The notes under the pieces: model-generated
Seen by the model: only the letters and a program-made list of their open reading frames with translations
Told to the model about the DNA's origin: nothing
Databases searched by the model: none
Translations under genes and position numbers: made by a program
Shown: one piece after another, positions 2,256-60,130 of the stretch
Numbering within the stretch: position 1 is the stretch's first letter
Layout: each line of letters starts with the position of its first letter
Source: Escherichia coli
GTDB taxonomy: Bacteria > Pseudomonadota > Gammaproteobacteria > Enterobacterales > Enterobacteriaceae
Length of the DNA: 64,000 nucleotides
NCBI RefSeq assembly: GCF_044647545.1
Contig: NZ_CP172818.1
Strand: one strand, 5' to 3'

Positions 2256-2842
2256 CAGCCATCAAACATGCGGCGCGCCAGTTCAACGTCGTTACTGACG
2301 CCCAGTTTTTCCATCAGGTTAGCGCGATGGACGTGTACCGTTTTCGGTGACAAGCCCAGTTCGGCGGCAATCTCTTTCACCGCCATTCCTTGCGCCAGTT
2401 TTTCCGCCACCTGGCGTTCGCGTTTGGTCAGCGGGTCCTGGCGACCGGATGCCAGTTTAATGGCAATATCCGGCGTCAGATAACAGCCGCCCGTGGCAAC
2501 CGTATGCACCGCAGCAATCAGTTCGTCAGGGCTACAACGCTTGGAGAGAAAGCCGCGCGCCCCCGCGTTAAGCGCCTGCTCAACCAGCGCCGGACTGTCA
2601 TGAACAGAGAGCATAATCGTCGCCATACCTTTCGGCAGCTGGCTTAGCAGCTCCAGACCGGAGATATCGGGCATGGAGATATCGCAAATACACACCTGCA
2701 CACCGCGCCCCGGCAGCCCCGCCAACGCCTCGCGCCCCGAACCAAACTCGGCAACTACCTGCAAATCAGGTTCCAGCCCCAGCAGCTGCGCAAAGCCGGA
2801 GCGGACGATGAGGTGATCGTCTATAAGTGCAACGGTGATCAT
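2252..2842 (-). CDS. uhpA: Response regulator UhpA (NarL/FixJ family)
   Basis: 196-aa product [17 protein letters not shown]... from ATG at 2840-2842; receiver domain plus LuxR-type HTH; the 216-aa track ORF is an upstream in-frame extension. Confidence 0.95.
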
Positions 2843-3139
2843 GATTGGGTCCTGGCGGATAAAAAACGCGCATACCTTAACGATAAGCGCGATGTTGTTC
2901 AAGTTGGATATGGGGTATGTATTCTTAATGATGTTGTCTTATCTCAAAACTTACGAAAGTAACGTTGTAGTTTATTCGAAAAACGAATTATTTGTAGTTC
3001 GATTGCAATATTCCTGAAAAATTTCTCCTCCTTCGAAATCTTTTCAGTAACAAAGATCATCCAAAACCTATAATCTTCACGGAACCTCATTAAGAGATCA
3101 TCCACGAGTCGTTATGAATATAATCCTCACCGTATTCGA

Positions 3140-4737
3140 TAAAAGAAATAAAAAATAAAACTAACAATCTATTGTTTTAAAAAAAAAAGGTTGGGAAAGA
3201 AGGGAAAAACAAGAAAAAAAATTTTTTCCCAAGAAAAAAAAAAACCGGGTAACAACAAACCGGGAAAAAAAAAAAAGGTTCCTGATAAAATACCCCCTAT
3301 CAACCGACAGAAACCTTGAACAACATAATACATTACCTATTCCTGAAATACTGAACAAGAAATAATTTTCGTTTTTTCCAACAATTAAAAATTCCAAAAA
3401 ATAAATCAGCAAAAAAATTCAAAAAAAATTCGGAAATTTTTCCAACCACAAAAAACTTATCCCAAAATCAGATGGCATTAATTTTAACCAAAAAAAGAAA
3501 ATGACCCCCCAATTTCGCCAAAGAAAAAAGGAAAAACCCCAAAAAAAATTTTTAAAATTAAAAAAAAAAAGAAATAATTAAGAATAATGATTTCTATATA
3601 TTAATGGCAACAAACAAATATTAAATTACAACACAACACAAACAAACTTTAAGTAAATTACTATACAAATCAATAACAATAACACCTTAACACACAAAAC
3701 AACCTACATTTCACAGTCATAACGAAAAAAATCATAAAACCACTCAATAAATAAAACACCGAAACAAATATAAAAAACATAAAAAAAAAAAAAAAAAAAA
3801 AACAAGAAAAAAAAAAAAAATAAAATAAAAATAAAAAAAAAAACGAAACGAAAAAATAATAAACAATAAAAGACCCCCACAAACAAACAAATCAAAACTA
3901 CACTCACTCCCCCTGATTGATTAAAAAAACATCTCTCAGATATAAAATACATAAAACAAACAAAAAAATAAATGAAAAAAAACAACAAATAAATAATTTA
4001 ATAATAAAAATAAAAATATTACGCAACAACAACTATCAACAAAAAAAATAAAAAAAAAAAACAAAGATAAGAAACGTAAGAAAAAAAAAAAAAAAAAAAA
4101 AAAAGACGAAAAAAAAAAAAAACTATGAATCCGAACAAGTAAAAAAAAAAAAAAAGAACAAACAATAACCAATCAAAAAAAAAAAAATAAATAAAAAAAA
4201 AAAATTCATTTAAAAAATGAAAAAAACACAAAAAAATAGAAAACAAAAAAAATAAAACAAACGGAAAAAAAAAAAAAAAAAAAAGAAGACTGAAGAAAAA
4301 AAATACTAAAAAAATAATTAATATTAAACCAAAAATAAAAAAAAATAAAAAATAAAAAACTAAAAAAACACAAAAAATCAACAAAAAATAAAAAAAAATA
4401 AACAAACCAAAAAAAAAAAAAAAAAAAAACGAAAACATTAAAATATATAACAAAATAAAAACTAAAAAAACAAAAAACAAACAAAAAAAAAAAAGAAATA
4501 ACAATAAAAAAAAAATTATAAACAACCAAAACAAATATAAAAAAAAAAACGAAAACAAAAAAAAATTAAAAAAAAAAAGAAAAATATAAAAAAAAAGAAA
4601 AAAGAAGAAAAATACAAAAAACAAAAAAATAAAAAAAAAAAAAAACACAAAAAAAAAAAAGAAAAACGAAAACAAGAAAAAAAAGAAAAATGTAAAATCA
4701 GCAAAATTCAGAAAATTTGAAAGAGAAAAAACCAAAA
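3140..4737. repeat. Poly(A)-dominated low-complexity tract on the + strand (T-rich on the - strand), non-coding
   Basis: Read directly: A runs longer than 20 nt (e.g. 3781-3802, 4081-4104) separated by single C/G/T or short motifs; frequent stop codons on the + strand; - strand gives only poly-Phe/Leu pseudo-ORFs. Boundaries approximate. Confidence 0.9.
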
Positions 4738-5028
4738 TTACTGAAAAAACACCACGATCTTGTTAAACATCGTCGGATTAGACTGATTACGCTGCACTTT
4801 CACCACATCTTCCAGCTTATCGATTTGGCTTATCACCTACTCCAGACGCTGGTCATCCTTGACCAGTAGCCAGATATGGCTTTTGTCGCTGTCCTGAATC
4901 GGCAGGCAGAGAATGCCTTCAACGTTAAAAGCGCGACGGGCAAAAAGCCCACAAACGTGAGTCATTACGCCCGGATGGTTGCGAACGGTGAGTTCGAGAA
5001 TCACGTTGTCATGAGTTGTGTTTTGCAT
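4738..5028 (-). pseudogene. ilvN: Acetolactate synthase I small (regulatory) subunit IlvN, interrupted by an in-frame TAG at codon 64
   Basis: Codons 1-63 read [63 protein letters not shown], then TAG (+ strand cta at 4837-4839), then 32 further in-frame ilvN-like codons ([32 protein letters not shown]) to TAA at 4738-4740. Confidence 0.85.
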
Positions 5029-5031
5029 GGC

Positions 5032-6720
5032 TTATTCCCCCACCATTTCAGTATTCGCCGCACCTGGCGGCACCATCGGGTACACTTTTTCTTCGGCATC
5101 AATACGCACATGGATCAGCGCCGGGCCAGGGCGATTGATGATTTCCTGTAATGCAGCCTGCGGATCGGTTTCGTTATTCAAATCACAGGTTTCGAGGCCG
5201 AATCCGGCGGCAATCTGCATAAAGTTGATTTTTCCCGGATAGGTAGCGGCAAAAACGCCCTGCTTGTAGAACAGACTCTGTTGCTGATGTACCAGCCCCA
5301 GCGCTTCGTTGTTCATCAGAATGATTTTGACATCCAGCTGATTTTCACTGGCGGTCGCCATCTCCTGAATATTCATCATCAGGCTGCCGTCGCCGGAGAA
5401 ACACAACACTTTGCGATCCGGGTTCGCCAGCGCTGCGCCAATCGCCGCAGGCAGGCCAAAGCCCATCGTGCCCAGCCCGCCGGAGGTCAGCCACTGGCGC
5501 GGGCGATTGAGCGGATAAGCCTGCGCCGTCCACATCTGATGCTGACCCACGTCGGTGGTGATAATCGCGCTGTCATCGACACAGGCGGCAACAGCGTTGA
5601 TCAGGCCGTAATGCGTTAACGGATCGCACGCTTTCGGGATTGGACACGGGAATTCGCGCTGCAAATCCGCCACCAACTGGTGCCACTCTGCACGCGGTTG
5701 CGCTTCCACCAGCGGGATCAATTGCGCCAGCACGTCATCAACATCCGCCTGAATCGCTACGTGCGGTTGCTTGATTTTGCCCAGCTCTGCACGGTCGATA
5801 TCGACATGAATGATTTTCGCATTCGGGCAGAACTGCTCGGTTTTGCCAATCGCCCGGTCATCAAAACGCGCACCGAGCACAATCAGCAGATCCGCCTCCT
5901 GCAGTATATAGTTGGTGCTGCGCACGCCGTGCATCCCCAGCATACCCAGCGACAGCGGATTCGCTTTTGGCAGCATGCCCAGCGCCATTAAGGTCATGGT
6001 AGTTGGCAATTGCGCTTTCTCTGCCAGTTCACGCACCCGTGCGGGCGCATTGATCACACCGCCGCCCAGATAAAGCACCGGGCGTTTGGCGGCGTTAATC
6101 ATTGCCGCTGCGTCACGAATGCTTTCTTCGCTAAAGGCGGGTGCGGCGGCTTTTTCTGCCATAGCTGGCTGTGCTTCAATCTCAAAAACCGCCGTTTGCA
6201 CATCTTTAGGAATGTCTATCCACACCGGGCCAGGGCGGCCTGATTGCGCAATGCGGAAGGCATCGCTCATGACCTGCGGGAGTTCTTCGATATGTCTGAC
6301 CAGATAGTTGTGTTTGGTGATGGGGATAGAGATGCCGTAGGTGTCCACTTCCTGGAAGGCGTCGGTGCCGATCATCGAGGCAGGAACCTGACCGGTGATG
6401 CAAATCAGCGGGATGGAATCCAGCCGCGCATCGGCAATGGCGGTCACCAGGTTAGTCGCACCCGGTCCGCTACAGGCCATACAGACCGCCGGTTTACCGT
6501 CGGTGCGCGCCATTCCCTGAGCGATAAACCCCGCGCCCTGTTCATGGCGAGCCAGAATATGGCGGATTTGCGTGCTTTGGCTTAAGGCATCGTAAACAGG
6601 CAGGATAGAACCGCCCGGAATGCCCGTCACAATCTTAATGCCCTGCTGTTCCAGGAAATGAACGATAAATTCTGCGCCGGTAAAGCGCTTACGCGTCGAT
6701 GTTGTGCCCGAACTTGCCAT
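5032..6720 (-). CDS. ilvB: Acetolactate synthase I large subunit IlvB (ThDP/FAD enzyme)
   Basis: 562-aa ORF with ThDP-binding acetohydroxyacid synthase signature (GDGSLMMNIQE...); immediately upstream of ilvN with a 3-nt gap. Confidence 0.95.
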   Translation of the reverse strand: MASSGTTSTRKRFTGAEFIVHFLEQQGIKIVTGIPGGSILPVYDALSQSTQIRHILARHEQGAGFIAQGMARTDGKPAVCMACSGPGATNLVTAIADARLDSIPLICITGQVPASMIGTDAFQEVDTYGISIPITKHNYLVRHIEELPQVMSDAFRIAQSGRPGPVWIDIPKDVQTAVFEIEAQPAMAEKAAAPAFSEESIRDAAAMINAAKRPVLYLGGGVINAPARVRELAEKAQLPTTMTLMALGMLPKANPLSLGMLGMHGVRSTNYILQEADLLIVLGARFDDRAIGKTEQFCPNAKIIHVDIDRAELGKIKQPHVAIQADVDDVLAQLIPLVEAQPRAEWHQLVADLQREFPCPIPKACDPLTHYGLINAVAACVDDSAIITTDVGQHQMWTAQAYPLNRPRQWLTSGGLGTMGFGLPAAIGAALANPDRKVLCFSGDGSLMMNIQEMATASENQLDVKIILMNNEALGLVHQQQSLFYKQGVFAATYPGKINFMQIAAGFGLETCDLNNETDPQAALQEIINRPGPALIHVRIDAEEKVYPMVPPGAANTEMVGE

Positions 6721-6765
6721 GCTCCAGTCCTTTTCTTCTGGGCCGACTTTCCGGGAGGTGCTTAA

Positions 6766-6798
6766 ACGAAAAACCCCGCCCGGTTTGCGCCGGCGGGG
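6766..6798 (-). terminator. ilvB attenuator (rho-independent terminator downstream of the leader peptide)
   Basis: GC-rich inverted repeat ccccgcc...ggcgggg (6774-6798) followed on the - strand by a U-run, between ivbL and ilvB. Confidence 0.75.
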
Positions 6799-6825
6799 TT
6801 TTGGAATCGTGTGTTGTTCCAGTCC

Positions 6826-6924
6826 CTACGGCGCATTGCCGACGACGACCACCACACGCACGACGACCACTGCGGCGGATGGCGCAGTTGGTAGTAGTTT
6901 TGCGTTGAGCATGGAAGTAGTCAT
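6826..6924 (-). CDS. ivbL: ilvB operon leader peptide (Val/Leu-rich attenuation peptide)
   Basis: Translated by hand: MTTSMLNAKLLPTAPSAAVVVVRVVVVVGNAP (32 aa), with the classic Val run. Confidence 0.9.
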   Translation of the reverse strand: MTTSMLNAKLLPTAPSAAVVVVRVVVVVGNAP

Positions 6925-7084
6925 TGGGGACCTTGTTGGTTTTGTGTTTAACAATATTTATACAAGCACAGCTTTACAGGGGAGACAATGGAAAATTTTT
7001 CAGCAAGGGAAAATTGAGGGGTTGATCACGTTTTGTACTGAATTGCGGGTAACAAAAAACCCCGCCGGAGCGAGGTTTCGTCAG

Positions 7085-7230
7085 TCGCCTGCGGCTGGTA
7101 ACCGCAAAGCACACTGTATTATGTCAACACTGAAAGTATACGTGTTCCGCGCAGAACGCGCAATTTCGGCACGAATTTTGACGTATTTAGTACATAGTTG
7201 AGTATCGTTCACAGTTTTCGTTTTGTCCAA
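7085..7230 (-). ncRNA. istR: Probable IstR antitoxin sRNA region (IstR-1/IstR-2), divergent from tisB; boundaries approximate
   Basis: Position between ivbL and the LexA box/tisB matches the known istR-tisAB arrangement; exact ends cannot be fixed from sequence alone. Confidence 0.4.
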
Positions 7231-7234
7231 ATAT

Positions 7235-7254
7235 TACTGTTTATTTATACAGTA
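7235..7254. promoter_or_regulatory. LexA (SOS) box at the tisAB/istR-2 promoter
   Basis: TACTGTTTATTTATACAGTA fits the CTGT-N8-ACAG LexA consensus; a TATAAT -10 hexamer follows at 7261-7266. Confidence 0.85.
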
Positions 7255-7488
7255 AACTTCTATAATATCACTGTACGCAATGTGTTATGCGGGGGCCGCA
7301 TCGTTACCCGGCGCACTAAGTCCTGGCTGAAACGGGTGGTGCCGTCAGCGCCTTAACCCCGCGTGAGCACACTGTGTTATGTCAACAAGCACAACGTTTC
7401 TCCTTGAGATACCGCGTGCACAACAGCTGGCAACAGGCAGCGGAAAGGTACGTCAGCTGGCAGTGCTCCTGAACCACAGGAGACGCGT

Positions 7489-7578
7489 ATGAGCCTGGTG
7501 GATATCGCCATTCTTATCCTCAAACTCATTGTTGCAGCACTGCAACTGCTTGATACTGTTCTGAAATACCTGAAGTAA
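7489..7578 (+). CDS. tisB: Type I toxin TisB (SOS-induced small membrane peptide)
   Basis: Translated by hand: MSLVDIAILILKLIVAALQLLDTVLKYLK (29 aa), downstream of the LexA box. Confidence 0.85.
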   Translation: MSLVDIAILILKLIVAALQLLDTVLKYLK

Positions 7579-7600
7579 TTCAGATTCAAGTCGCACCAAA

Positions 7601-7630
7601 GGGGAGCGGGTAACCGCTCCCCTTTCATAT
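7601..7630 (+). terminator. Rho-independent terminator after tisB
   Basis: Hairpin ggggagcgg/ccgctcccc followed by a T-rich stretch. Confidence 0.7.
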
Positions 7631-7857
7631 TTAGCGTGCGGGTTGGTGTCGGATGCAATGCTGATGCATCTTATCCGCCCTACCATCCCTCCCGGCAACA
7701 TTTATTGCCGCTTTTGTTTACATATTCTGCCGCTAAACAATTCCCCATTCCTGGCGTATATCTGGCTAACATTTATCAATGTGATAGATTCCTCTCCCGC
7801 ATTTATGGGAATGCGTAGTGACTTATTCTAATTATTTTTATAAAAGCATCCGTGATA

Positions 7858-9042
7858 ATGAAAAGGCATAGAAACGTCAATTTGTTATTGATGTTGGTAT
7901 TACTCGTGGCCGTCGGTCAGATGGCGCAAACCATATATATTCCAGCTATTGCCGATATGGCGCGCGATCTCAACGTCCGTGAAGGGGCGGTGCAGAGCGT
8001 AATGGGCGCTTATCTGCTGACTTACGGTGTCTCACAGCTGTTTTATGGCCCGATTTCCGACCGTGTGGGTCGCCGACCGGTGATCCTCGTCGGAATGTCC
8101 ATTTTTATGCTGGCAACGCTGGTCGCGGTCACGACCTCCAGTTTGACAGTATTGATTGCCGCCAGCGCGATGCAGGGGATGGGCACCGGCGTTGGCGGCG
8201 TAATGGCGCGTACTTTGCCGCGTGATTTATATGAACGGACACAGTTGCGCCATGCTAATAGCCTGTTAAACATGGGAATTCTTGTCAGTCCGTTGCTCGC
8301 ACCGCTAATCGGCGGTCTGCTGGATACGATGTGGAACTGGCGCGCCTGTTATCTCTTTTTGTTGGTACTTTGTGCCGGTGTGACCTTCAGTATGGCCCGC
8401 TGGATGCCGGAAACGCGTCCGGTCGACGCACCGCGCACGCGCCTGCTTACCAGTTATAAAACGCTTTTCGGTAACAGCGGTTTTAACTGTTATTTGCTGA
8501 TGCTGATTGGCGGTCTGGCCGGGATTGCCGCCTTTGAAGCCTGCTCCGGCGTGCTGATGGGCGCGGTGTTAGGGTTGAGCAGTATGACGGTCAGTATTTT
8601 GTTTATTCTGCCGATTCCGGCGGCATTTTTTGGGGCATGGTTTGCCGGACGTCCTAATAAACGCTTCTCAACGTTGATGTGGCAGTCGGTTATCTGCTGC
8701 CTGCTGGCTGGCTTACTGATGTGGATCCCCGACTGGTTTGGCGTGATGAATGTCTGGACGCTGCTCGTTCCCGCCGCGCTGTTCTTTTTCGGTGCCGGGA
8801 TGCTGTTTCCGCTGGCGACCAGCGGCGCGATGGAGCCGTTCCCTTTCCTGGCGGGCACGGCTGGCGCGCTGGTCGGCGGTCTACAAAACATTGGTTCCGG
8901 CGTGCTGGCGTCGCTCTCTGCGATGTTGCCGCAAACCGGTCAGGGCAGCCTGGGGTTGTTGATGACCTTAATGGGATTGTTGATCGTGCTGTGCTGGCTA
9001 CCGCTGGCGACGCGGATGTCGCATCAGGGGCAGCCTGTTTAA
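7858..9042 (+). CDS. emrD: Multidrug efflux MFS transporter EmrD
   Basis: 394 aa from ATG at 7858 (MKRHRNVNLLLMLVLLVAVGQMAQTIYIP...); the track ORF starts two codons upstream at GTG. Confidence 0.95.
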   Translation: MKRHRNVNLLLMLVLLVAVGQMAQTIYIPAIADMARDLNVREGAVQSVMGAYLLTYGVSQLFYGPISDRVGRRPVILVGMSIFMLATLVAVTTSSLTVLIAASAMQGMGTGVGGVMARTLPRDLYERTQLRHANSLLNMGILVSPLLAPLIGGLLDTMWNWRACYLFLLVLCAGVTFSMARWMPETRPVDAPRTRLLTSYKTLFGNSGFNCYLLMLIGGLAGIAAFEACSGVLMGAVLGLSSMTVSILFILPIPAAFFGAWFAGRPNKRFSTLMWQSVICCLLAGLLMWIPDWFGVMNVWTLLVPAALFFFGAGMLFPLATSGAMEPFPFLAGTAGALVGGLQNIGSGVLASLSAMLPQTGQGSLGLLMTLMGLLIVLCWLPLATRMSHQGQPV

Positions 9043-9049
9043 GCTCACG

Positions 9050-9547
9050 TCACCGCAGCATCGTCATCAGCTCCATGGGAGAACGATGCTGCTTTATCAG
9101 ATCACGCATCACCCGCATATGCGGCGCGGAGTAAGAATAAAACGCCTGATAGCCCGCACAAAGCACGTTGTCTGGCGTCTCCTCCCGAGCGTGCGGGCAC
9201 AGGCGATGCCAGTCGCACGCCTGGCAGCCACGACGCGGTTGCGGGTTTTCGCTGCCACACCATTTTTGTAGGGTGGCGTCAAAAAGCTCAATCGAAATAC
9301 GACTGATATCTGCCCGTACCCAACACTCGAACAGGGCAATTAAAAATTTCCCCCACAGCTCTGCTGTCACCGAAGCGGCCGTCAGATCGCCCCGGTCATC
9401 AAATTCAAGATGGGGAATAAGCTGTACGGAGCGGATACCCCGTTGTTTGAAATTGTGATAAAAATCGGCAGGTTGCAGAGCATCCTTGTACTCTACAACC
9501 AGTTTATGCCTGTCCTCTTCAGCATCAATGACCTGACTTCCTGTCAT
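9050..9547 (-). CDS. yidF: YidF, Cys-rich SPASM-like protein (putative sulfatase-maturating enzyme lacking a radical-SAM core)
   Basis: 165-aa ORF with clustered cysteines (CGSENPQPRRGCQACDWHRLCPHA) but no CxxxCxxC motif; adjacent to sulfatase yidJ. Confidence 0.8.
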   Translation of the reverse strand: MTGSQVIDAEEDRHKLVVEYKDALQPADFYHNFKQRGIRSVQLIPHLEFDDRGDLTAASVTAELWGKFLIALFECWVRADISRISIELFDATLQKWCGSENPQPRRGCQACDWHRLCPHAREETPDNVLCAGYQAFYSYSAPHMRVMRDLIKQHRSPMELMTMLR

Positions 9548-9906
9548 GCGACTCTCTCAATAAATACGATAAGTTGATGTATATGCGTTACAGCAAACAG
9601 TATTGCGAGAGATAACACCGCGAGGGAGATCAAAAATTTGTCACGGACTACGTGAAATTGGGAAAAATCGCTATTCGTGACATCCATTAAATTGCGATTA
9701 CGGGTGTAGTGCCAGAGGATCAGCGCCACAATGGCGAGAATGCCAATCGAAATCCAGAATAACATGCCCGCCTGGTGCCAGTTGTGTTTGATAGCCAACG
9801 CCATCAACGCGCCGTAGCCCAGCATGGTACGAAACCACGCCAGTGATGTACGCTCCGGCTGCAGCCCTGGGTCGGCAATGCGTCTGGCTTTGCGGCTATC
9901 CGGCAT
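9544..9906 (-). CDS. yidG: Inner membrane protein YidG
   Basis: 120-aa hydrophobic ORF, overlapping yidF start and yidH stop. Confidence 0.8.
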   Translation of the reverse strand: MPDSRKARRIADPGLQPERTSLAWFRTMLGYGALMALAIKHNWHQAGMLFWISIGILAIVALILWHYTRNRNLMDVTNSDFSQFHVVRDKFLISLAVLSLAILFAVTHIHQLIVFIERVA

Positions 9907-10243
9907 ACAACACCAGTCCCATAACGATCACCGCCACGACCATCAATATTAAGCTGATGATTAATAAGCTGTTGGTGTAGGGCAGGTCCTCTTTCAGACG
10001 CATCGCTTTTTCATTGCGTAACCAGCGCAGGTAGCCATACATCGCTAACCCGCCGGAAAACAGACACAACAACAACGCCAGCAGTTCGCGAATGACGGGC
10101 GTGGCGAAATCTGGCGCAAGTTGATCAAGCCCAACCCCCGCCGCCAGAAAGCCTAGTGCGGTACGGATCCACGCCAGAAAAGTACGCTCATTAGCCAGCG
10201 AGAAGCGATAATCAGGTGCTTCTCCGAGGCGGGAAATTTTCAT
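9896..10243 (-). CDS. yidH: Inner membrane protein YidH (DUF202-like)
   Basis: 115-aa hydrophobic ORF with an AGGAG ribosome-binding site upstream. Confidence 0.8.
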   Translation of the reverse strand: MKISRLGEAPDYRFSLANERTFLAWIRTALGFLAAGVGLDQLAPDFATPVIRELLALLLCLFSGGLAMYGYLRWLRNEKAMRLKEDLPYTNSLLIISLILMVVAVIVMGLVLYAG

Positions 10244-10302
10244 TGTTGCTCCTTAACTGTTCCTCGCCGAAAAAAGTAGGCCAGGAAAACAGCAATAATG
10301 CA

Positions 10303-11796
10303 TCAGAACTTCTGTTTTTTCTCTTCCACCTTCACCCCTTGTGTCGGTAGGCCGGTGTCATAGTCGCGTACCACTGGCGAATAGCCATCTTGTGGGCGTG
10401 GACGAAACGCCCCCATCCAGCGCGGTCGTGCATCTTTACGCCACGGACGCAGACTCCATTGGTAACTGCGGAACGGATCGCGAATTTTGTCCATGTAATC
10501 CAATAAGGCGTCATGCATTTTGCGGCGAACGTCGGCAAAACGGATATCATCGATCAGATTATGCATTTCATTTGAATCATTACGGCGATCGTAAAGTTCA
10601 TCACTGGTGAAGAGGTTGAGTACCAGTTTAAAGTCATCCGTCACCCAGCAACGCACCGGAATAAAACCGCCAAAGCTGTCATGCTCAATCTCGTAGCGGT
10701 TAAATTCCACCATTACACCGCGTGGCTCTTTCACGGCAAGGATATTTTCCCCCGGCAGAATCTCTGGTTTTTCAATATCTGCCAGCGCCATCATTGTCGG
10801 CAGTAAATCGATATGACTGACTGGCGTATCGACCTGTCGCCGCTCCCCTTGCGGCGAACGGATGATCAGCGGAATGCGGGTGATGTCGTCATACATCGCC
10901 GCCCCTTTACTGATCAGCTTATGTGCGCCCATCATTTCGCCGTGATCGGAGGTATAAATAACCCACGTATTTTCACGTTGCTCTGGCGTTAAGGCATTGA
11001 TGACCCGTCCGATTTGGTCATCAACAAAGTCATTGCAGGCAAAATAGAGCGGATGGTGATAAAGCCCGTCATCACCGACTGGCGATGGCATCGCCTGCGC
11101 CCATAAGCGGTGATGTTCCGGTTTGTTCGCCAGGTCATCCTGTGATTTCTCGCCAAGTTCGTAGTAAAAATCAGCGTATTTCTCTAAATACTCCACCGGA
11201 CAGGTGAACGGGTGATGCGGCTCATCATACGAAACCACCATCAGGAAGGGTTCCTCGGCGCGCGCGGGCTGTTGCAGAAAATCTACCGCCCGATTGCTGA
11301 TGCGGTGCGCCCAGGTGAAGGTTTCGTCGATATGGTTCGCCTGTAAATCCTCAACGCTGTTTAGGCCATTGCGCCACAGGCTGATCTCTTTTTCCGTCAG
11401 TTCGCTAAGGTAGTTCGCCCCATCGAACCAGTAATCAGCGTCCCACTCCGGCGGACACTCGCCAGTGCCGAAATAGTCATGACCGTCGAGATGCCATTTG
11501 CCGATGTAACAGGTGTGATAGCCCGCATCCTTAAAGTAGCGTCCCATAGTGGAGATGTTTTTGCCCGGCGCGACGTTGTTGGTCCACGGGCCGGACTGGT
11601 TAGCGTAGATACCGGTAAACAGCCCGGCGCGCGCTGGTGTACAAACCGGTGAACAGGTGTAGGCGGAATTAAAGCGAATACTTTCCGCCGCCAGACTATC
11701 AATATTTTGCGTATTCAGCGGCTTACCGCTATAGCAACCGACCATATTGGTGGCCTGGGTATCGGTCATGATGAACAGAAAATTGGGGCGTTTCAT
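10303..11796 (-). CDS. yidJ: Cys-type sulfatase YidJ
   Basis: 497-aa ORF with sulfatase signature CTPAR (C-x-P-x-R) in ...AYTCSPVCTPARAGLFTG...; N-terminal MKRPNFLFIMTD metal-binding motif. Confidence 0.9.
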   Translation of the reverse strand: MKRPNFLFIMTDTQATNMVGCYSGKPLNTQNIDSLAAESIRFNSAYTCSPVCTPARAGLFTGIYANQSGPWTNNVAPGKNISTMGRYFKDAGYHTCYIGKWHLDGHDYFGTGECPPEWDADYWFDGANYLSELTEKEISLWRNGLNSVEDLQANHIDETFTWAHRISNRAVDFLQQPARAEEPFLMVVSYDEPHHPFTCPVEYLEKYADFYYELGEKSQDDLANKPEHHRLWAQAMPSPVGDDGLYHHPLYFACNDFVDDQIGRVINALTPEQRENTWVIYTSDHGEMMGAHKLISKGAAMYDDITRIPLIIRSPQGERRQVDTPVSHIDLLPTMMALADIEKPEILPGENILAVKEPRGVMVEFNRYEIEHDSFGGFIPVRCWVTDDFKLVLNLFTSDELYDRRNDSNEMHNLIDDIRFADVRRKMHDALLDYMDKIRDPFRSYQWSLRPWRKDARPRWMGAFRPRPQDGYSPVVRDYDTGLPTQGVKVEEKKQKF

Positions 11797-13508
11797 AGGC
11801 TATCCTTCGCGTCGGGAGTAAAGGTTACGGCTGGGTCGTGACGATGCCGCCAGCTGTCAAAAATCAGGTAGACAATCACTACGGCAGCGATGAAATAACT
11901 GATCATCGCTAACCAGCGCGTACCGTAGCCGCCGAATTCAGCCAGCCCGGCATAGACGCCAATCATAGCGAACAGGATGCCAATTGACGCGATCTTGACG
12001 TTTTTCCACGGTTTCATGTCCACCGCAAACGCATCTTTGAAGGTGAACGGCGTGGCGCGCGGTTTGATAAAACCGATCACCAGCATCACGACCACGTTGA
12101 TGCAGAACGTACAGGCCAGCACATAGAGGAAATGGAAGTCGAACTTCACCAGATAGTTGATGGTGATGTAGCTGATTATGCCAATCCCCATCGCCACTTT
12201 TGCCGCCAGCGCTGGAATGCGCGGGAAGAAAAAGCCCATAATGATGATGGTAACCAGCGGCACGTTGTAAATACCGTTGAGCTGTTTCATCCAGCTATAC
12301 AGCCCCTGCGGCGCGTTGGCGATCCACGGCGCGACCAGCACCGAAACGATAGCGATAAAGAAACCAAATTTGCGCCCGACGGTGACCAGCTGCTGCGGCT
12401 CGGCATTCTGGTTAATGATGCGACGGTAAATACCCATACTGAATAACGTACTGGCGCTATTCAGAAAGCCGTTGAAGGTACTGATCACCGCACCAAATAA
12501 CACCGCGCCGAAGAAACCCACCAGTGGCACTGGCAGAACGTTATTGACCAGCGTCGGGTAGGCCATGTCGGCTTTCGGTAGATCCTGATACAGATGAAAC
12601 GCAATCAACCCTGGCAGCACCAGTACCAGCGGGTCGAGCATTTTCAGCACCGCCGTTAACAGCGCCCCCTTTTGCCCTTCCGCCAGGCTTTTTGACGCCA
12701 GCGTGCGTTGCACGATGCCCTGATTTGTACACCAGTAAAAGGTGTTCACCAGAATCAAACCGGTAAATGCCGCGCCAATCGGCAAGGGATCGGTCGGGCC
12801 ACCGACTGAGTTTAATTTCTCGGCGTGAACGGTGGTGAGTTGCTCAATGCCCTGCATAAAGCTGCCCTTGCCCATCGCGATCAGGCCAAATATCGGCACC
12901 ATCAACCCGCCAATAACCAGCCCAATACCGTTGATGGAGTCCGCCACTGCCATTGCGCGCAGTCCGCCGATCACCGCATACAAAATTCCCGCCAGACCAA
13001 GCAAAATTACCAATAGCCAGATAGCCGCACCGTGAGAAATCTGTAGCGATTCCCCGACGTGAAACAGGCTGTTGAGCGCCAACGCGCCGGAGTAGAGAAC
13101 AATCGGCAGAAAGCAGACGCCGGTGGCAATGAGGAAGCAGAAGTCGATGATAATACGCGTCGTTTTATCATAACGTTCCTCCAGAAAATCGGGGATGGTG
13201 GCAATGCCGCGCTTCAGATAGCGTGGTAAAAAGATTAGCGCGAGGAAGATCAGCGTCACCGCTGAAGTCACTTCCCAGCCCATCACCGACATGCCGCTTT
13301 TGTAGGCCTGCCCGGAAAGACCAACCAGTTGTTCCGTGGAAAGGTTGGTTAACATTAACGAAGCGGCAATAACCGGCGCTTTTAGTGAACGTCCGGCAAG
13401 AAAATAGCCTTGTTGCGATCCGGTATCTGTTTTGCGAACCTTCCACCAGGTGATGATCGCCACCAGCAGCGTAAAACCGACAAAACTCAAGATTTGTAAC
13501 GAATTCAT
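11793..13508 (-). CDS. yidK: Sodium:solute symporter family transporter YidK
   Basis: 571-aa polytopic membrane ORF; 4-bp overlap with yidJ implies co-transcription. Confidence 0.9.
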   Translation of the reverse strand: MNSLQILSFVGFTLLVAIITWWKVRKTDTGSQQGYFLAGRSLKAPVIAASLMLTNLSTEQLVGLSGQAYKSGMSVMGWEVTSAVTLIFLALIFLPRYLKRGIATIPDFLEERYDKTTRIIIDFCFLIATGVCFLPIVLYSGALALNSLFHVGESLQISHGAAIWLLVILLGLAGILYAVIGGLRAMAVADSINGIGLVIGGLMVPIFGLIAMGKGSFMQGIEQLTTVHAEKLNSVGGPTDPLPIGAAFTGLILVNTFYWCTNQGIVQRTLASKSLAEGQKGALLTAVLKMLDPLVLVLPGLIAFHLYQDLPKADMAYPTLVNNVLPVPLVGFFGAVLFGAVISTFNGFLNSASTLFSMGIYRRIINQNAEPQQLVTVGRKFGFFIAIVSVLVAPWIANAPQGLYSWMKQLNGIYNVPLVTIIIMGFFFPRIPALAAKVAMGIGIISYITINYLVKFDFHFLYVLACTFCINVVVMLVIGFIKPRATPFTFKDAFAVDMKPWKNVKIASIGILFAMIGVYAGLAEFGGYGTRWLAMISYFIAAVVIVYLIFDSWRHRHDPAVTFTPDAKDSL

Positions 13509-13674
13509 CTCATAGCCCTTATTTATGTTTATGTCCCGGACGCATGAATATAGGGAGAGGTAAAATGCGTCGGGTCAGGCAGTCAGATTCTTAAAATACA
13601 AACATCGTATCCCTGAACGGATTGTTTTCTGTTAAGTTCAGGTTGTGAGCATAATTCGCCGGAGGGATATTAAA

Positions 13675-17021
<3,347 letters not shown>

Positions 17022-23859: not shown

Positions 23860-25148
23860 CCAACGCGCTTCACATCGCCCACCAGCAGGATGTAAGAGAG
23901 CGCGCCAATCAACGCAACGGCGGAGATATAAACCAGTGCAGGCGCGAAACCGTAACCCTGCGCCAGGTACCCCACCACCAGAGGAACGGTGATGCCGCCC
24001 AGACCACCGACAAAGTTAAACACGCCGCCGGTTAAACCAATCAGGCGCATCGGTGCCAGAGAAGAGACCAGCGACCAGGTAATCGAAGCAAAACCGTTGC
24101 CGAAGAATGCCAGCGCCATCAGGCACATAATCATCATCGGATCGTTAGTGTAGTTAGCGCCCATAATGCAGGTGGAGATCAGCAAGCCGCAGATAATCGG
24201 CGTTTTACGCGCAAAGCCCAGTGAAAAGCCCTTACGTACCAGCAGATCCGCGACCCAGCCAGAGAGCAGGACGCCGACAAACGCCGCGAGGAACGGTACC
24301 GTGGTCATAAAGCCTGCTTTCAGCGCCGTGATTCCTTTTTCCTGGGTTAAATAGTTCGGGAACCAGGTTAAAAAAAACCACAGTGTAGAAGCCACCGCAA
24401 ATTGCCCAAGATAGACACCGATCAGTTTACGATGGAACACCAGTTTCCAGTCTTTGGCTGTTAACGGCTGACGCGCCTCTTTTTTCACCGGCGCATCACC
24501 ATCCACCAGACCGCCGCCATCACGAATGTAATCCAGTTCAGCTTTGCTGATGCCTTTAGTCAGGCGCGGCGGCTGATAAACCTTAAACCAAATCAGCGAC
24601 CAGATAATGCCGATACCACCGGTGACAATGAACACCCAGTGCCAGCTCAACATTTCCTGAATCCAGATCAGCAGCGGAGTCAGAAACGCCAGACCGACAA
24701 ACTGACCAGACGTATAAAAACCAACGGCAGAAGCGCGTTCATGTTCCGGGAACCAGCTGGTCACCATCCGGTTATTGGTCGGGAAAGCGGGCGCTTCGAA
24801 AATACCGGTTATCGCGCGCAGACCAATTAATGACATTAATCCCGTGGCAAAGCCCTGGAATAACGTCGCCACTGACCAGCCAAATATCGCAATAAAATAA
24901 GTCACGCGTGAACCTACGCGATCTAAAAACCAACCGCCGGGGATCTGACATAGCGTATAAAGCCAGGCGAAGGCCGAAAATACATAGCCCATTTCCGCTT
25001 TCGTAATACCGAACTCTTCCTGAATATGGGCGGAAGCCACGGCCAGGTTAGCGCGGTCAACATAACAAATGACCACCGTAATAAAGATCATCACCAGCGT
25101 CAGATAACGCCGACGCCCCGGCTTTGCTGCATTAACGGGAATATCCAT
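23856..25148 (-). CDS. dgoT: D-galactonate:H+ symporter DgoT (MFS)
   Basis: 430 aa from internal Met ([22 protein letters not shown]...). Confidence 0.9.
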
Positions 25149-25267
25149 AGCGAGCTTTCTCCAGATTTTGGGCATAGCGAAGCCGCTCACCATGCCCTGT
25201 AATTTACAGAGGGTTATATTTTTGTATTGCTGTTTTAGTGCCCGATGAGGGGCTTACGTGGCAGGAA

Positions 25268-26416
25268 TTACCACTCTGCTACGCTGTTATCTTCATGACG
25301 CCAGAGCGGATTACGCCAGTCCGGGGCATTTTTACTGAACTCAATAACTTTAGCTTCGTCGATTTCCACGCCTAAGCCCGGTTTCGTTAGCGGTTTAAAG
25401 AAGCCGCCAACCATGCTGAAGTCTTCTTTGTTTTTCACAAAGTCGAGTAACTCCGCGCCTTTGTTGTAATGAATTCCCATACTTTGTTCCTGAAGTACGG
25501 CGTTATAGGAAACAAAGTCGATATGCAGACAAGCTGCCAGTGCAATCGGTCCGAGCGGACAGTGCGGCGCAAGGGTCACGTCATAGGCTTCTGCCATTCC
25601 GGCAATTTTGTAGCATTCGGTAATACCGCCTGCATGAGAGAGATCTGGTTGCAGAATCGAAATACCGCCCGCCTCCAGCACGCGTTTAAAATCGAAACGT
25701 GAGAACATGCGTTCACCCGCCGCCAGAGGAATATGCGTTTGTGCCGCCAGTTTCGGGTAGTATTCGGCCTGTTCCGCCAGCACCGGCTCTTCAATAAACA
25801 GCGGGCGATACGGTTCCAGTTCTTTAATCAGTACTTTCGCCATCGGCGCGCTGACGCGACCGTGGAAATCAAGACCAAACTCAATCTGATTGCCAAAAGC
25901 TTCACGAATTTGTGCCACGGTGTTGACTGCCGCATCTACCGCGCGGGAGTTATCAATTAGCCCCAGTTCTTCACAACCGTTCAGTTTGAAGGTATCGAAG
26001 CCGATTTCGCGCAGGGTTTTAATGCCGTCGATAACATTCGCCGGACGATCGCCGCCGACCCAACTGTAGGCTTTAATTTTGTCACGAACCAGGCCACCCA
26101 TCAGTTGCCAGACCGGCGCATTCAGCACTTTACCTTTGATATCCCATAACGCCTGGTCGATCCCGGCGATGGCGCTCATCAGGATCGGACCGCCACGATA
26201 AAATCCGGCGCGATACATCACTTGCCATAAGTCATTGATGCGCGATGGATCCTGACCAATCAAATAGTCACTCAGCTCGTGAACTGCCGCTTCCACCGTA
26301 CGAGCGCGGCCTTCGATCACGGGCTCGCCCCAACCGACCACGCCTTCATCGGTTTCAATTTTCAGGAACATCCAGCGGGGAGGTAAACGATACGTAGTAA
26401 TTTTGGTGATTTTCAT
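25268..26416 (-). CDS. dgoD: D-galactonate dehydratase DgoD (enolase superfamily)
   Basis: 382-aa [35 protein letters not shown]... Confidence 0.95.
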
Positions 26417-27030
26417 TGCACTGCCTCTCGATACGCCTTAACAAATGCTGCTGCCTGCTGCGCGGTGCGTTCTACGGATTGCCCGGCGCGATAGAGATCG
26501 CTGCCTAAGCCCGCCCCTGCACAACCTGCGTCTATCCACTGCGCCAGGTTTTCTGGCGTCACACCGCCAACGGCAAAGACTGCGATGTCCTGCGGTAATA
26601 CCGCTTTTAACGCTTTGATGTATTGCGGACCAAAAGCCGATGACGGGAATATTTTCAGCGCCTGCGCGCCCGCGTCGATCGCGGTAAAGGCTTCAGTCGC
26701 CGTCGCGCAGCCGGGGCAAACGGTCATGCCATAGCCCACCGCGCGGCGGATCACTTCACTATGGATATTGGGCGTAACGATGAGCTGGCAGCCCATCCTG
26801 GCGAGCGTATCGACCTGTTCAGGTTTCAGTACCGTACCTGCGCCAATCAACGCCTTATCGCCGTACGCATCAACGATGGCGGGAATGCTTTTCTCCCATT
26901 GAGGGGAATTCAGCGGGATTTCAACCGCGTCGAACCCGGCGTCAATCACCGCGCCAACATGCGCCAGCGCCTCGTCGGGCGTAATACCGCGCAAAATGGC
27001 GATCAGCGGGAGTTTAGTTTGCCACTGCAT
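26413..27030 (-). CDS. dgoA: 2-dehydro-3-deoxy-6-phosphogalactonate aldolase DgoA
   Basis: 205-aa ORF, overlaps dgoD start. Confidence 0.95.
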
Positions 27031-27892
27031 GAGCGATGCTCCTTATACCAGCCTGAAATGCCTTGTCGCCCGCTACCACCGCCACGTCGCAACCCATCGC
27101 CTGAAAGGCTTGCTGGTAGCGCGCGGTCAGCGATGTTCCGGCGACAAGGGTGATGGCGTGTTGATGGGTCACATAGTCGCGCATACTGGCAACCTCTGCG
27201 CCAATCAACAAACCAGAGAGAAATTCGCTGACCTGTTCACGGGGAAGCGTTCCCAGCACATGCGATGCGCGAACTTCAAAAAGCTGCGGCAATATGGCGG
27301 GCGCATTAAGGCCACGCTCAAGGCCAGCCGCGAAGGCATCGGCAGAGTTTTCCTGCGGCGGCAAACCTGCGCCAATCAATGAGTGATTTAACAGTAAATG
27401 ATGTAATTCACCGGTCATTACGGTGCGAAAATCGTTGATTTGCTGGCTATCGGCCTGCACCCATTTGCAATGCGTACCGGGCATGACATAAAGAGAGGAA
27501 GGAGCCAAAGCACGCGCGCCGATCAATTGTGTTTCTTCGCCGCGCATCACATTGTGGTTATCGTCATGAGAAACGCATAATCCGGGAATAATCCAGATAT
27601 TGTCGCCAACAGACGTTAATTGTTCGCCAATAGATGAAAAACGGGCAGGAACAGATAAATACGGTGCAACTTTCCAGCCGACATTGCTGCCGACCATTCC
27701 TGCCATCACCACTGGCGTATTCTCTTCACGCCAGTCGGCCGTGACTTCTGCTAACACCGCAGCCGGAGATTTTCCGTTCAGGCGCGTGACGCCTGCTTCT
27801 GATTGCCTGCTCTCCAGGCAGTGGTCGCCCTGATAAAGCCAGGCGCGCAGATTGGTCGATCCCCAGTCAATTGCGATGTAGCGAGCTGTCAT
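27014..27892 (-). CDS. dgoK: 2-dehydro-3-deoxygalactonokinase DgoK
   Basis: 292-aa ORF, overlaps dgoA and dgoR. Confidence 0.95.
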   Translation of the reverse strand: MTARYIAIDWGSTNLRAWLYQGDHCLESRQSEAGVTRLNGKSPAAVLAEVTADWREENTPVVMAGMVGSNVGWKVAPYLSVPARFSSIGEQLTSVGDNIWIIPGLCVSHDDNHNVMRGEETQLIGARALAPSSLYVMPGTHCKWVQADSQQINDFRTVMTGELHHLLLNHSLIGAGLPPQENSADAFAAGLERGLNAPAILPQLFEVRASHVLGTLPREQVSEFLSGLLIGAEVASMRDYVTHQHAITLVAGTSLTARYQQAFQAMGCDVAVVAGDKAFQAGIRSIAHAVAN

Positions 27893-28578: not shown

Positions 28579-28855
28579 GGAGAGTCCTTGTGCTCTGTAT
28601 GTTCTTCTCTACTTTACCCCGATCGATGCATAACGCGGCAACTTTGTAGTACCAGCGTGATGACGTTCGCGTTTTCCGTGTGCGTAATGTAGTACAAGCT
28701 TATATTACTGTACTACAATTTAGATCACAAAAAGAACAATGCATAAAAAAATGACATGCGTCGGGCAGAAATCTGAAAAGGGATAACAGGCGCTAAACAG
28801 GAGGGAAAGAAGAGTATGCTTTCAACGACTTAGCTACTCGTTTAAAGGATTAATC

Positions 28856-30881: not shown

Positions 30882-31015
30882 GATAATCACCTGTAAAGCG
30901 TTACGTGTTGACCCAAAAAGTATAGATCTGCGGGATGATAATTGCGGATTGCAGAAATAAAAAGGGCGGAGATGATCTCCCGCGACTAAGTCATTTTATC
31001 AGCAACAAAAAGCCA

Positions 31016-50755: not shown

Positions 50756-50821
50756 TTCTTCACACTCCCTTCACTTACCCCGCTTAAATTGGCGCTCAAA
50801 GGTAAGTAAAGGGAGTTTGAT

Positions 50822-51289: not shown

Positions 51290-59973
<8,684 letters not shown>

Positions 59974-60130
59974 AGTCATTTATTAATGGTTTTTATAACG
60001 AACATCCAGGTTCGGAAATTAATTTAATTGCGTGCAGAGAAAATAGCAATGCGCTATTGATAAAAATATGACCATGCTCGCAGTTATTAACTTTGTGTAA
60101 TTTTAGGAATTTATAAAGTTATATATAACA

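What the first reader, a model, noticed from the sequence alone, without database searches (positions are those of the whole stretch)
2843..4860. Tract boundaries: gradual degeneration on the uhpA side, abrupt end at the ilvN stop codon with substitutions clustered in the adjacent ilvN 3' end
From about 2900 to 3140 the sequence is AT-rich but of normal complexity. From about 3140 to 3600 it passes through short doubled homopolymers (aaaa, ggg, ccc, tttt) before collapsing to near-pure A runs. On the other side the tract stops exactly at the ilvN TAA (4738-4740), and the last 32 codons of ilvN (4741-4836) carry several differences from the IlvN sequence as I recall it, while the first 63 codons appear unchanged. 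An error gradient approaching the junction looks more like a sequence-generation or assembly artefact than an insertion event, which would normally leave sharp ends and often target-site duplications.
Basis: partly seen in the sequence, partly recalled or inferred. Interest (0 to 1): 0.35.

Follow-up and report, generated by a model that had tools for sequence, protein, structure and literature searches.

The report
Corrupted copy of a known island
The A-rich tract between uhpA and ilvN is a garbled, non-biological rendering of a 3.4-kb accessory island that close E. coli relatives carry intact at this spot, and the neighbouring ilvN "errors" are bases mixed in from a second natural copy of the ilvN 3' end, so there is no new biology here.

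Summary
The window is an accurate E. coli sequence closest to strain RS571. It is 100% identical over 1-2923 and has no substitutions over 4961-14779.

RS571 and at least 644 complete genomes carry a 3.4-kb AT-rich island with two unknown-function genes between uhpA and ilvN. The natural junctions lie at 2903/2904 and at the ilvN stop codon.

The window's 1,834-nt tract is a decayed copy of that island:
- From 2924 it differs only by single-base losses, mostly G.
- Then T and C are lost or become A, while template A's are kept.
- Colinearity with the island is clear to about 3960, weak to about 4340 and absent beyond.
- There are no target-site duplications, no terminal repeats and no real ORFs.
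- A 40-mer from the tract is absent from two public collections.

All 10 substitutions in ilvN (4754-4960, including Q64*) equal the states of a paralogous ilvN' fragment found next to a DeoR/PfkB island in other E. coli. They alternate site by site with RS571 states, with 11 switches over 22 sites. This is template mixing, not random error and not a recombination tract.

The most likely cause is consensus or polishing failure. A generative or in-silico origin is the main rival. Interest is low.

The parts
2843..2903 (.). Conserved part of the uhpA-ilvN spacer, directly upstream of the uhpA start codon (complement at 2840-2842).
   Evidence: Identical to RS571 and homologous to the island-less spacer.
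2904..2923 (.). Intact first 20 nt of the RS571-type accessory island (TTGGATATGGGGTATGTATT). The natural left junction is 2903/2904.
   Evidence: Identical to RS571. Island-less genomes have CCTTGAGCGG at this position instead.
2924..3143 (.). Island copy with deletions only: 33 template bases missing (25 G, 5 T, 3 C), no substitutions, no insertions.
   Evidence: Megablast and global alignment to RS571.
3144..3960 (.). Progressively decayed island copy. Non-A bases are deleted or replaced by A in the order G, then T, then C. Template A's are kept at about 90-100% per 200-nt bin. The segment is still colinear with island positions of about 335-1600.
   Evidence: Per-base loss table. Colinearity z=24.9 for 2904-3560 and z=6.1 for 3561-3960 against block-shuffled island.
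3961..4340 (.). A-rich junk (A about 0.6-0.8) with only weak residual colinearity to the island.
   Evidence: Alignment z=2.0. Colinear 7-mer chain 21 versus 15±1.9, reached by 1 of 300 shuffles.
4341..4690 (.). A-rich junk (A about 0.8) with no detectable relation to any template.
   Evidence: z about 0. Only low-complexity repeats. The ORFs are poly-Phe or poly-Lys strings.
4691..4724 (-). Possible trace of the flank that follows the stop codon of the alternative (DeoR-island) ilvN allele.
   Evidence: Local alignment score 13.5 versus 8.5±1.5, reached by 4 of 1000 shuffles. The RS571 island end and the empty spacer show no similarity. This evidence is weak.
4738..5028 (-). ilvN. As written in the window it is truncated by TAG at codon 64 (4837-4839).
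   Evidence: Translation compared with RS571 IlvN.
4754..4960 (-). Zone of 10 substitutions. Every one equals the state of the paralogous ilvN' fragment, and they alternate with RS571 states.
   Evidence: Alignment A3 and site table. The pattern is RLRLRRRRLLLLLRRRRLRLRL, with 11 switches over 22 sites. The best identity of window ilvN to any of 5,421 complete genomes is 96.9%.
14780..14805 (.). Second glitch of the same flavour. About 505 nt inside the 6-phospho-alpha-glucosidase gene are replaced by TTTCCCACAAAAAACAAAAAAAAAAA, between direct repeats CCACCA...GTGGTTC.
   Evidence: Comparison with RS571. None of 4,274 genomes with the gene shows it.

Best explanation
The tract is not a biological element. 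The source strain almost certainly carries the ordinary 3.4-kb RS571-type accessory island between uhpA and ilvN. The sequence over about 2924-4960 is a failed consensus.

On the uhpA side, the caller followed the true island but increasingly dropped bases or defaulted to A as support faded, losing G first, then T, then C, until only A-rich noise remained.

On the ilvB side, the last roughly 240 nt of ilvN were called from a roughly 50:50 mixture of two real templates. One is the true ilvN. The other is a paralogous ilvN' fragment of the kind that sits next to a DeoR/PfkB island in other E. coli. This gave a column-by-column mosaic that happens to include an amber codon. The mixture ends at the stop codon because that is where homology between the two templates, and between island types, ends.

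Shown here: the template relationships, the error spectrum, the privacy of the tract and the mosaic.

Inferred: that the cause is read-level, meaning a poor long-read draft that short-read or neural polishing could repair only from the edges, plus cross-recruited paralog reads. The alternative is a purely computational corruption.
For: - The flanks are exact. There are no differences from RS571 in 1-2923 and no substitutions in 4961-14779. The bgl block 50757-60000 has 1 mismatch in 9.2 kb to strain G5. The window is therefore a real, accurate sequence with local failures.
- The tract is a subsequence-like copy of the RS571 island. It shows deletions only at first, then changes to A. Template A's are kept at about 100% and there are essentially no insertions. 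Colinearity is z=24.9, then 6.1, then 2.0, then 0.
- The intact island is in at least 644 complete genomes, 91 of them at 99% identity or more. The intact 46-mer is in 16 metagenome contigs. The window's G-dropped 40-mer is absent from genome and metagenome collections.
- All 10 ilvN differences are states of the ilvN' fragment of strain 4/1-1. They alternate with RS571 states, with 11 switches in 22 sites and adjacent bases 4780/4779 of opposite origin. My estimate of the chance of this under random error is about (21/240 × 1/3)^10, or about 2e-16.
- The mosaic 48-mer is absent from all fetched island-bearing loci and from the species-representative genomes. Natural island-bearing contigs carry the RS571 ilvN end.
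- Other private glitches of the same flavour, meaning base drops, added A's or A-rich filler, occur at 14780-14805, 10254-10287, 30980 and 61772.
- Low-complexity junk reads and read or assembly 'glitches' are documented for long-read data (PMC6966772).
Against: - No reads or assembly metadata are available, so the read-level cause is inference.
- I know of no specific pipeline documented to give loss in the order G, T, C together with A-filling.
- The junk-to-clean switch falls to the base on the stop codon. I explain this by the end of homology, but it would also fit a model that 'knows' gene ends.
- Whether the source genome contains the DeoR/PfkB island with ilvN' cannot be checked in this window. 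The closest relatives checked (for example FDAARGOS_497) show a single ilvN place.
- The corrupted span of 2,037 nt (2924-4960) is suspiciously close to 2,048.
Confidence: 0.6

Rival explanations
1. The block of about 2924-4960 was written by a computational sequence model or an in-silico corruption step. Examples are gap infilling or continuation from both flanks by a DNA language model, or an imperfect neural copy. Such a model recalls the island on one side and ilvN plus its alternative allele on the other, then collapses into a homopolymer.
For: - Quality decays progressively with distance from each good flank and ends in A runs. Low-complexity homopolymer collapse and degradation with distance from the seed are reported for Evo 2 generation (bioRxiv 10.64898/2026.01.17.700093).
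- The switch falls exactly at the stop codon.
- The ilvN changes preserve the frame length, and 6 of 10 are at third codon positions.
- All variant states are natural ones that a model could have learned.
- The jump between the repeated motifs CCACCA..GTGGTTC at 14780-14805 resembles a copy-model skip.
- The corrupted span is 2,037 nt, close to 2,048.
Against: - About 220 nt of the island are reproduced with deletions only and no substitution. Colinearity survives runs of about 20 or more A's up to about 3960 and perhaps 4340. This points to a process with continuous access to the true template, not to recall from memory.
- The ilvN mosaic alternates roughly 50:50 per site. It neither follows allele frequencies nor settles on one haplotype.
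- An amber codon was written in frame.
- Collapse to the same plus-strand base from both directions would be a coincidence.
- The remaining roughly 60 kb are exact natural sequence.
Confidence: 0.25
2. Two independent things are present. The ilvN 3' mosaic, including Q64*, is a real allele of the strain, created by gene conversion or recombination with an ilvN' copy at this island hot spot. Only the A-rich tract is an artefact.
For: - The exact 63-aa truncated IlvN product exists in nature. It is listed in 64 blocks of the collection, and in several contigs it is followed by a DeoR/PfkB island.
- The locus is a natural three-state hot spot: empty, RS571 island or DeoR island.
- All 10 changes are natural states.
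Against: - There are 11 switches over 22 sites within 220 nt, including opposite origins at adjacent bases. This is not what recombination tracts look like.
- This mosaic was found in none of 5,421 complete genomes (best 96.9%), in no species representative and in no fetched locus.
- The natural 63-aa alleles differ from the window at the RS571-state sites.
- The mosaic abuts the junk, and its extent matches the paralog's homology.
Confidence: 0.1
3. The tract is real DNA. It would be an in-vivo decayed or hypermutated version of the island, for example from strand-biased deamination plus deletions, or from error-prone templated resynthesis.
For: - There is a strand-specific bias. Plus-strand G is lost first, and 5 of the 10 ilvN changes are G>A on the plus strand.
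- The tract stays colinear with the island.
Against: - About 45% of the bases are removed one at a time, and T, C and G are converted to A. Meanwhile 2,923 nt on one side and about 9.8 kb on the other carry no substitution relative to RS571. To my knowledge, no known mutational process does this.
- The ilvN changes are paralog states, not deamination products.
- A second A-filled glitch occurs 10 kb away.
- The variant is absent from every collection searched.
Confidence: 0.02

Closest known systems
RS571-type accessory island at the ilvN-uhpA spacer (two 'hypothetical protein' genes; RS571 NZ_CP034389.1 32795-36218)
   Same: The left junction and first 20 nt are identical. The next roughly 1,050 nt of the tract (and up to about 1,400 on weaker evidence) are colinear with the island. 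The flanking genes and strain background are the same.
   Different: About 45% of the bases are missing, A is 61% instead of 30%, no ORF survives, and the right-hand roughly 400-780 nt have no relation to the island.
Long-read junk (low-complexity) sequence and read or assembly glitches, left unrepaired by polishing
   Same: Low-complexity filler with skipped template sits between otherwise perfect flanks. There are several such sites in one sequence, plus small homopolymer-type indels elsewhere (PMC6966772).
   Different: The ordered G, T, C loss with A retention, and a graded decay over about 1.4 kb, are not a documented signature that I can cite. No reads are available to test it.
Collapsed-paralog or cross-mapped-read consensus (mosaic of two repeat copies)
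   Same: The ilvN 3' end alternates per column between the true gene and the ilvN' pseudogene fragment. The extent of the mosaic fits the stretch homologous to that fragment.
   Different: The presence of the paralog in the source genome is not shown.
Homopolymer or low-complexity collapse of autoregressive genome language models
   Same: Quality is lost progressively with distance from good context and ends in runs of one base.
   Different: Here the output tracks a specific real template base by base for more than 1 kb with deletion-only errors. The reported collapses occur after hundreds of kilobases.
Natural truncated ilvN allele (63 aa, K57, amber at codon 64) linked to a DeoR/PfkB island
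   Same: The window's ilvN encodes exactly this 63-aa product and shares its states at 8 of the 10 changed sites. The ilvN' fragment of strain 4/1-1 accounts for all 10.
   Different: The window keeps the RS571 state at 12 of the 22 sites that distinguish RS571 from the strain 4/1-1 ilvN' fragment, and is followed by junk rather than by the DeoR island.

Membership tests
Mobile-element insertion (IS or transposon) | Terminal inverted repeats | tested here: not met
   No inverted-repeat pairs in 2700-5000.
Mobile-element insertion (IS or transposon) | Target-site duplication at the junctions | tested here: not met
   The only direct repeats are A-run low complexity. Relative to island-less genomes, 10 bp (CCTTGAGCGG) are replaced and nothing is duplicated.
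Mobile-element insertion (IS or transposon) | Transposase or other coding capacity | tested here: not met
   The ORFs in the tract are poly-Phe or poly-Lys strings.
RS571-type ilvN-uhpA accessory island | Same junctions with the core genome | tested here: met
   The left junction 2903/2904 and the first 20 nt are identical. The right junction is at the ilvN stop codon, as in RS571.
RS571-type ilvN-uhpA accessory island | Sequence similarity along the whole island | tested here: inconclusive
   Colinear and significant for 2904-3960, weak to about 4340, none for 4341-4737.
RS571-type ilvN-uhpA accessory island | Two intact paralogous ORFs (about 430 and 479 aa) | tested here: not met
   No ORF of the island survives in the window. 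The ORFs are intact in L019 and L021.
Sequencing or assembly artefact | Absent from independent genomes and samples while the true version is common | tested here: met
   No record holds the tract. The G-dropped 40-mer has 0 hits and the intact 46-mer has 16 hits. The island is in at least 644 genomes.
Sequencing or assembly artefact | Error spectrum incompatible with mutation and selection, next to error-free flanks | tested here: met
   Deletion-only, then deletion plus changes to A. A's are retained and there are no insertions. No flank substitutions.
Sequencing or assembly artefact | Abnormal or mixed read support over the region | not testable with these tools
   No reads or provenance are available. 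The source record was not found by exact-protein look-ups.
Paralog-mixed consensus | Every variant equals the paralog's state and origins alternate per column | tested here: met
   10 of 10 differences are L018 states. There are 11 switches over 22 sites.
Paralog-mixed consensus | The paralog is present in the same genome or sample | not testable with these tools
   Only 64 kb of the source are available, and no ilvN' lies within them.
Generative-model collapse | Output loses all relation to a specific template once off-prompt | tested here: not met
   Template colinearity persists for more than 1 kb through A runs. It is lost only in the last roughly 400-780 nt.
Generative-model collapse | Provenance from a model run | not testable with these tools
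   The origin of the window is not disclosed.

The most novel reading that the evidence does not exclude
The A-rich tract and the mosaic ilvN end are real DNA in a living strain. In this reading they are the product of an unknown error-prone, template-following resynthesis of the island that drops or replaces non-A bases and switches between paralogous templates, and the product was then fixed in the chromosome.
Probability: 0.02. Interest if true: 0.75.

Novelty: not a real feature. Interest (0 to 1): 0.06.

Why it matters
The result matters mainly for data hygiene. Taken at face value, the window suggests three things that are all spurious:
- a 1.8-kb poly-A-rich insertion;
- an amber-truncated ilvN;
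- a deleted glucosidase gene.

Annotation or comparative pipelines, and sequence models trained on such records, would inherit them.

The analysis also gives a usable recipe for recognising this class of artefact:
- flanks identical to a near relative;
- subsequence-type decay of a known template;
- per-column paralog mosaics;
- several A-filled glitches in one sequence.

There is one genuine by-product. The intact island that belongs at this locus encodes an uncharacterised, Escherichia-restricted pair of paralogs. The predicted fold of the 479-aa member resembles EspG/VirA type III effectors.

Tried and rejected
- **Insertion element.** No terminal inverted repeat, target-site duplication or coding capacity.
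- **Divergent species origin for the flanks.** The first megablast gave at most 97.4% identity because it ranked island-less genomes first. Against RS571 the flanks are exact.
- **Random errors in ilvN.** Rejected. All 10 differences are paralog states.
- **Natural allele in public data.** The exact 63-aa product exists. The nucleotide mosaic is absent from complete genomes, species representatives and fetched loci.
- **Whole tract as a subsequence of the island.** LCS and weighted global alignments show this only up to about 3960-4340. My 60-nt chunk scan was too insensitive past 3560.
- **Right end templated by the RS571 island end or by the empty spacer.** No similarity was found. There is a weak hit to the DeoR-island flank only.
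- **Finding the source record.** Exact-protein look-ups of the glitch-fusion ORF and of the poly-Phe ORF found nothing on record. The IlvB look-up returned only normal island contexts.
- **Function of the island proteins by sequence.** No hit in Pfam, NCBIfam, PADLOC, PHROGs or PDB sequences.
- **dgo SNP patch as evidence for strain mixing.** Inconclusive. It looks like an ordinary recombination import.
- **Post-hoc base hierarchy in the mosaic picks.** Plus-strand G lost at 10 of 13 G-involving sites (my count from the site table; p about 0.05). This is suggestive only.
Full report
**What is in the window**

The region reads uhpA (minus strand, start codon complement at 2840-2842), then a 1,895-nt spacer (2843-4737), then ilvN (minus strand, 4738-5028) and ilvB. 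A content climbs from 0.29 to about 0.8 along the spacer and GC falls to 0.10. No other 100-nt window in the 64 kb has any base above 55%. The compositional observation and its coordinates are therefore real.

**What the locus looks like elsewhere**

Most E. coli have a 72-bp spacer at this locus. The genome closest to this window is strain RS571 (NZ_CP034389.1).
- Window 1-2923 matches RS571 with no difference of any kind.
- Window 4961-14779 matches with no substitution.
- All 10 mismatches of 4738-14779 lie in 4754-4960.

In RS571 the spacer is 3,424 bp and holds two annotated hypothetical genes. The island is present at 80% coverage or more in 644 complete genomes, 91 of them at 99% identity or more. 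Relative to island-less genomes it replaces 10 bp (CCTTGAGCGG). Its ends are sharp, at window 2903/2904 and exactly at the ilvN stop codon, and there is no duplication. A genuine insertion with clean ends therefore belongs at this position. Part of the 'abrupt end at the TAA' is a natural property of the locus.

**The tract is a decayed copy of that island**

- Window 2904-2923 equals the island start.
- From 2924 to 3143 the window differs from RS571 only by 33 missing bases (25 G, 5 T, 3 C). There are no substitutions and no insertions.
- From 3144 on, T, C and G are increasingly deleted or written as A.
- In 200-nt bins of the island, G loss (deleted or changed) rises through 28%, 48%, 54% and 70% to 93%.
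- T loss rises through 3%, 26%, 46% and 51% to 82%.
- C loss rises through 11%, 17%, 31% and 47% to 72%.
- Template A's are kept at about 90-100% per bin, and 100% in the first three bins. Insertions are essentially absent.
- Decay is not monotonic. Window 3144-3290 is poor and 3290-3350 again shows deletions only.

Colinearity with the island, tested against a block-shuffled island, falls off along the tract:

| Window segment | Result |
|---|---|
| 2904-3560 | z = 24.9 |
| 3561-3960 | z = 6.1 |
| 3961-4340 | z = 2.0; 7-mer chain test reached by 1 of 300 shuffles |
| 4341-4737 | z about 0 |

In total, 1,834 nt stand in for 3,363 nt.

There are no terminal inverted repeats and no target-site duplications, only low-complexity repeats. 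The ORFs are poly-Phe or poly-Lys strings.

The version in the window is private. No complete E. coli genome holds it. A 40-mer spanning the first G-drops is absent from 100,044 species-representative genomes and from the metagenome collection. The intact 46-mer has 16 metagenome hits.

**The ilvN substitutions**

Relative to RS571 the window differs at 4754, 4771, 4779, 4836, 4839, 4855, 4858, 4876, 4948 and 4960. These are codons 92, 86, 84, 65, 64, 58, 57, 51, 27 and 23. They give N57K, Q64* (TAG), M65V, D84N and A92V.

No complete genome exceeds 96.9% identity to this ilvN. Even so, the changes are not random.
- The exact 63-aa product occurs in nature, in 64 blocks of the collection. In several contigs it is followed by a DeoR/PfkB island.
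- In some E. coli a 3' fragment of ilvN lies as a pseudogene beside such an island elsewhere on the chromosome (strain 4/1-1).
- All 10 window differences equal that fragment's state.
- At 12 other sites that distinguish the fragment from RS571, the window keeps the RS571 state.
- The pattern is RLRLRRRRLLLLLRRRRLRLRL, with 11 switches over 22 sites. Adjacent bases 4780 and 4779 have opposite origin.
- The fragment's homology to ilvN starts at about nt 52 (window about 4977). The first changed base is 4960.

Random substitutions would match the fragment at all 10 sites with a probability of about 2e-16 by my estimate. A recombination tract would be contiguous. This is a per-column mixture of two real templates.

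The mosaic 48-mer is absent from species representatives and from every fetched locus. Natural island-bearing contigs carry the RS571 ilvN end.

The last roughly 35 nt of the tract (4691-4724) weakly resemble the DeoR-island flank just after that allele's stop codon, a score reached by 4 of 1000 shuffles. They do not resemble the RS571 island end or the empty spacer.

**Other glitches in the same window**

- At 14780-14805, about 505 nt inside the 6-phospho-alpha-glucosidase gene are replaced by TTTCCCACAAAAAACAAAAAAAAAAA, between repeats CCACCA..GTGGTTC. None of 4,274 genomes with the gene shows this.
- Small private indel clusters that drop bases or add A's occur at 10254-10287, 30980-30982 and 61772.

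Elsewhere the window is accurate natural sequence. The bgl block 50757-60000 has 1 mismatch in 9.2 kb to strain G5. A 43-SNP patch in the dgo genes looks like an ordinary recombination import.

**Mechanism**

Real biology is excluded for practical purposes. About 45% of the bases are removed singly and non-A bases are converted to A, next to kilobases with no substitution relative to RS571. To my knowledge, no known process does this, and the ilvN changes are paralog states.

The best-supported reading is a consensus failure, which I rate at about 0.6.
- On the uhpA side, a template-following caller with fading support defaulted to 'no base' or 'A'.
- On the ilvB side, the ilvN 3' end was called from mixed templates.
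- The switch falls at the stop codon because homology between the two templates ends there.
- Junk low-complexity reads and read or assembly glitches are documented for long-read data (PMC6966772).

The main rival, at about 0.25, is a computational origin: model infilling or continuation from both flanks, or an in-silico corruption.
- For it: homopolymer collapse and decay with distance from the seed are documented for genome language models. The corrupted span of 2,037 nt is close to 2,048.
- Against it: deletion-only tracking of a specific template for more than 1 kb, and a roughly 50:50 per-site mosaic.

A third option, at about 0.1, is that the ilvN mosaic is a real allele and only the tract is an artefact.

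None of these can be settled without reads or provenance. Exact-protein look-ups did not find the source record.

**Comparison with what is known, and verdict**

The tract fails every defining feature of a mobile-element insertion. It shares the junctions, but not the content, of the known island. It meets the testable criteria of a production artefact: it is private, its error spectrum is non-biological, its flanks are exact, and the same sequence holds several glitches.

My classification is 'not a real feature', with interest of about 0.06.

It is wrong in treating the ilvN changes as an error gradient and in ruling out an underlying genuine insertion.

**Side observation**

The intact island's two proteins (about 430 and 479 aa) are paralogs (28% identity, E 1e-25). 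They have no hit in Pfam, NCBIfam, PADLOC, PHROGs or PDB sequences. Their homologs are found only as E. coli hypothetical proteins.

An AlphaFold model of the 479-aa protein (mean pLDDT 68, pTM 0.62) hits only EspG/VirA type III effectors among solved structures. These are the top 25 hits, with E from 3e-7 to 3e-5 and probability 1.0, but TM-scores of only 0.25-0.44. This is a lead, not a finding.

Noticed in passing
window 14780-14805: A second private glitch. About 505 nt inside the 6-phospho-alpha-glucosidase gene are replaced by a 26-nt A-rich filler (TTTCCCACAAAAAACAAAAAAAAAAA), between direct repeats CCACCA..GTGGTTC. It is absent from all 4,274 complete genomes that carry the gene.
   Followed up: partly
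window 10254-10287; 30980-30982; 61772: Small private indel clusters relative to the references that cover each site (RS571 at all three, AP025214 at the first). The changes are: loss of GTA, A5 to A6 and GGAACAGC to GGAAAACAGC; 9 nt dropped from a terminator hairpin; and TT dropped from GTGTTAACC. All lie in intergenic DNA. They may be residual consensus errors or real strain differences.
   Followed up: partly
L019 9808-11247 and L021 8246-9529 (intact island in relatives; corresponds to window 2904-4737): The island that belongs at this locus encodes two paralogous orphan proteins restricted to Escherichia, with no family or PDB sequence hit. The predicted fold of the 479-aa protein (pLDDT 68) matches only EspG/VirA type III effectors by Foldseek, with probability 1.0 but low TM-scores (0.25-0.44).
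   Followed up: partly
L008-L010, L014-L017, L006/L012; L018 6015-6241: The ilvN-uhpA junction is a natural three-state hot spot: empty 72-bp spacer, RS571-type island, or DeoR/PfkB island. A natural ilvN allele truncated to 63 aa (K57, amber at codon 64) is widespread. An ilvN 3' pseudogene fragment also travels with a DeoR/PfkB/fucP island elsewhere on some E. coli chromosomes.
   Followed up: partly
window 24010-28828: There are 43 SNPs relative to RS571 in the dgo operon, with none in the flanking tens of kilobases. No complete E. coli genome matches this patch better than RS571 (99.1%). It looks like a recombination import from an unsampled donor. A strain-mixture origin was not excluded.
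   Followed up: partly
window 50757-60000: The cbrBC-yieKL-bglHBFG block is identical, apart from 1 mismatch in 9.2 kb, to strain G5. It sits where RS571 carries a block annotated with a type III effector and two hypothetical proteins. This is an ordinary accessory-block replacement between RS571-type yieH and phoU.
   Followed up: yes
window 2924-4960: The corrupted span is 2,037 nt from the first to the last deviation, close to 2,048. At the mosaic sites that involve a plus-strand G, the G state lost 10 of 13 times, the same direction as the G-first loss in the tract (p about 0.05). Both points are unexplained and may be coincidence.
   Followed up: no
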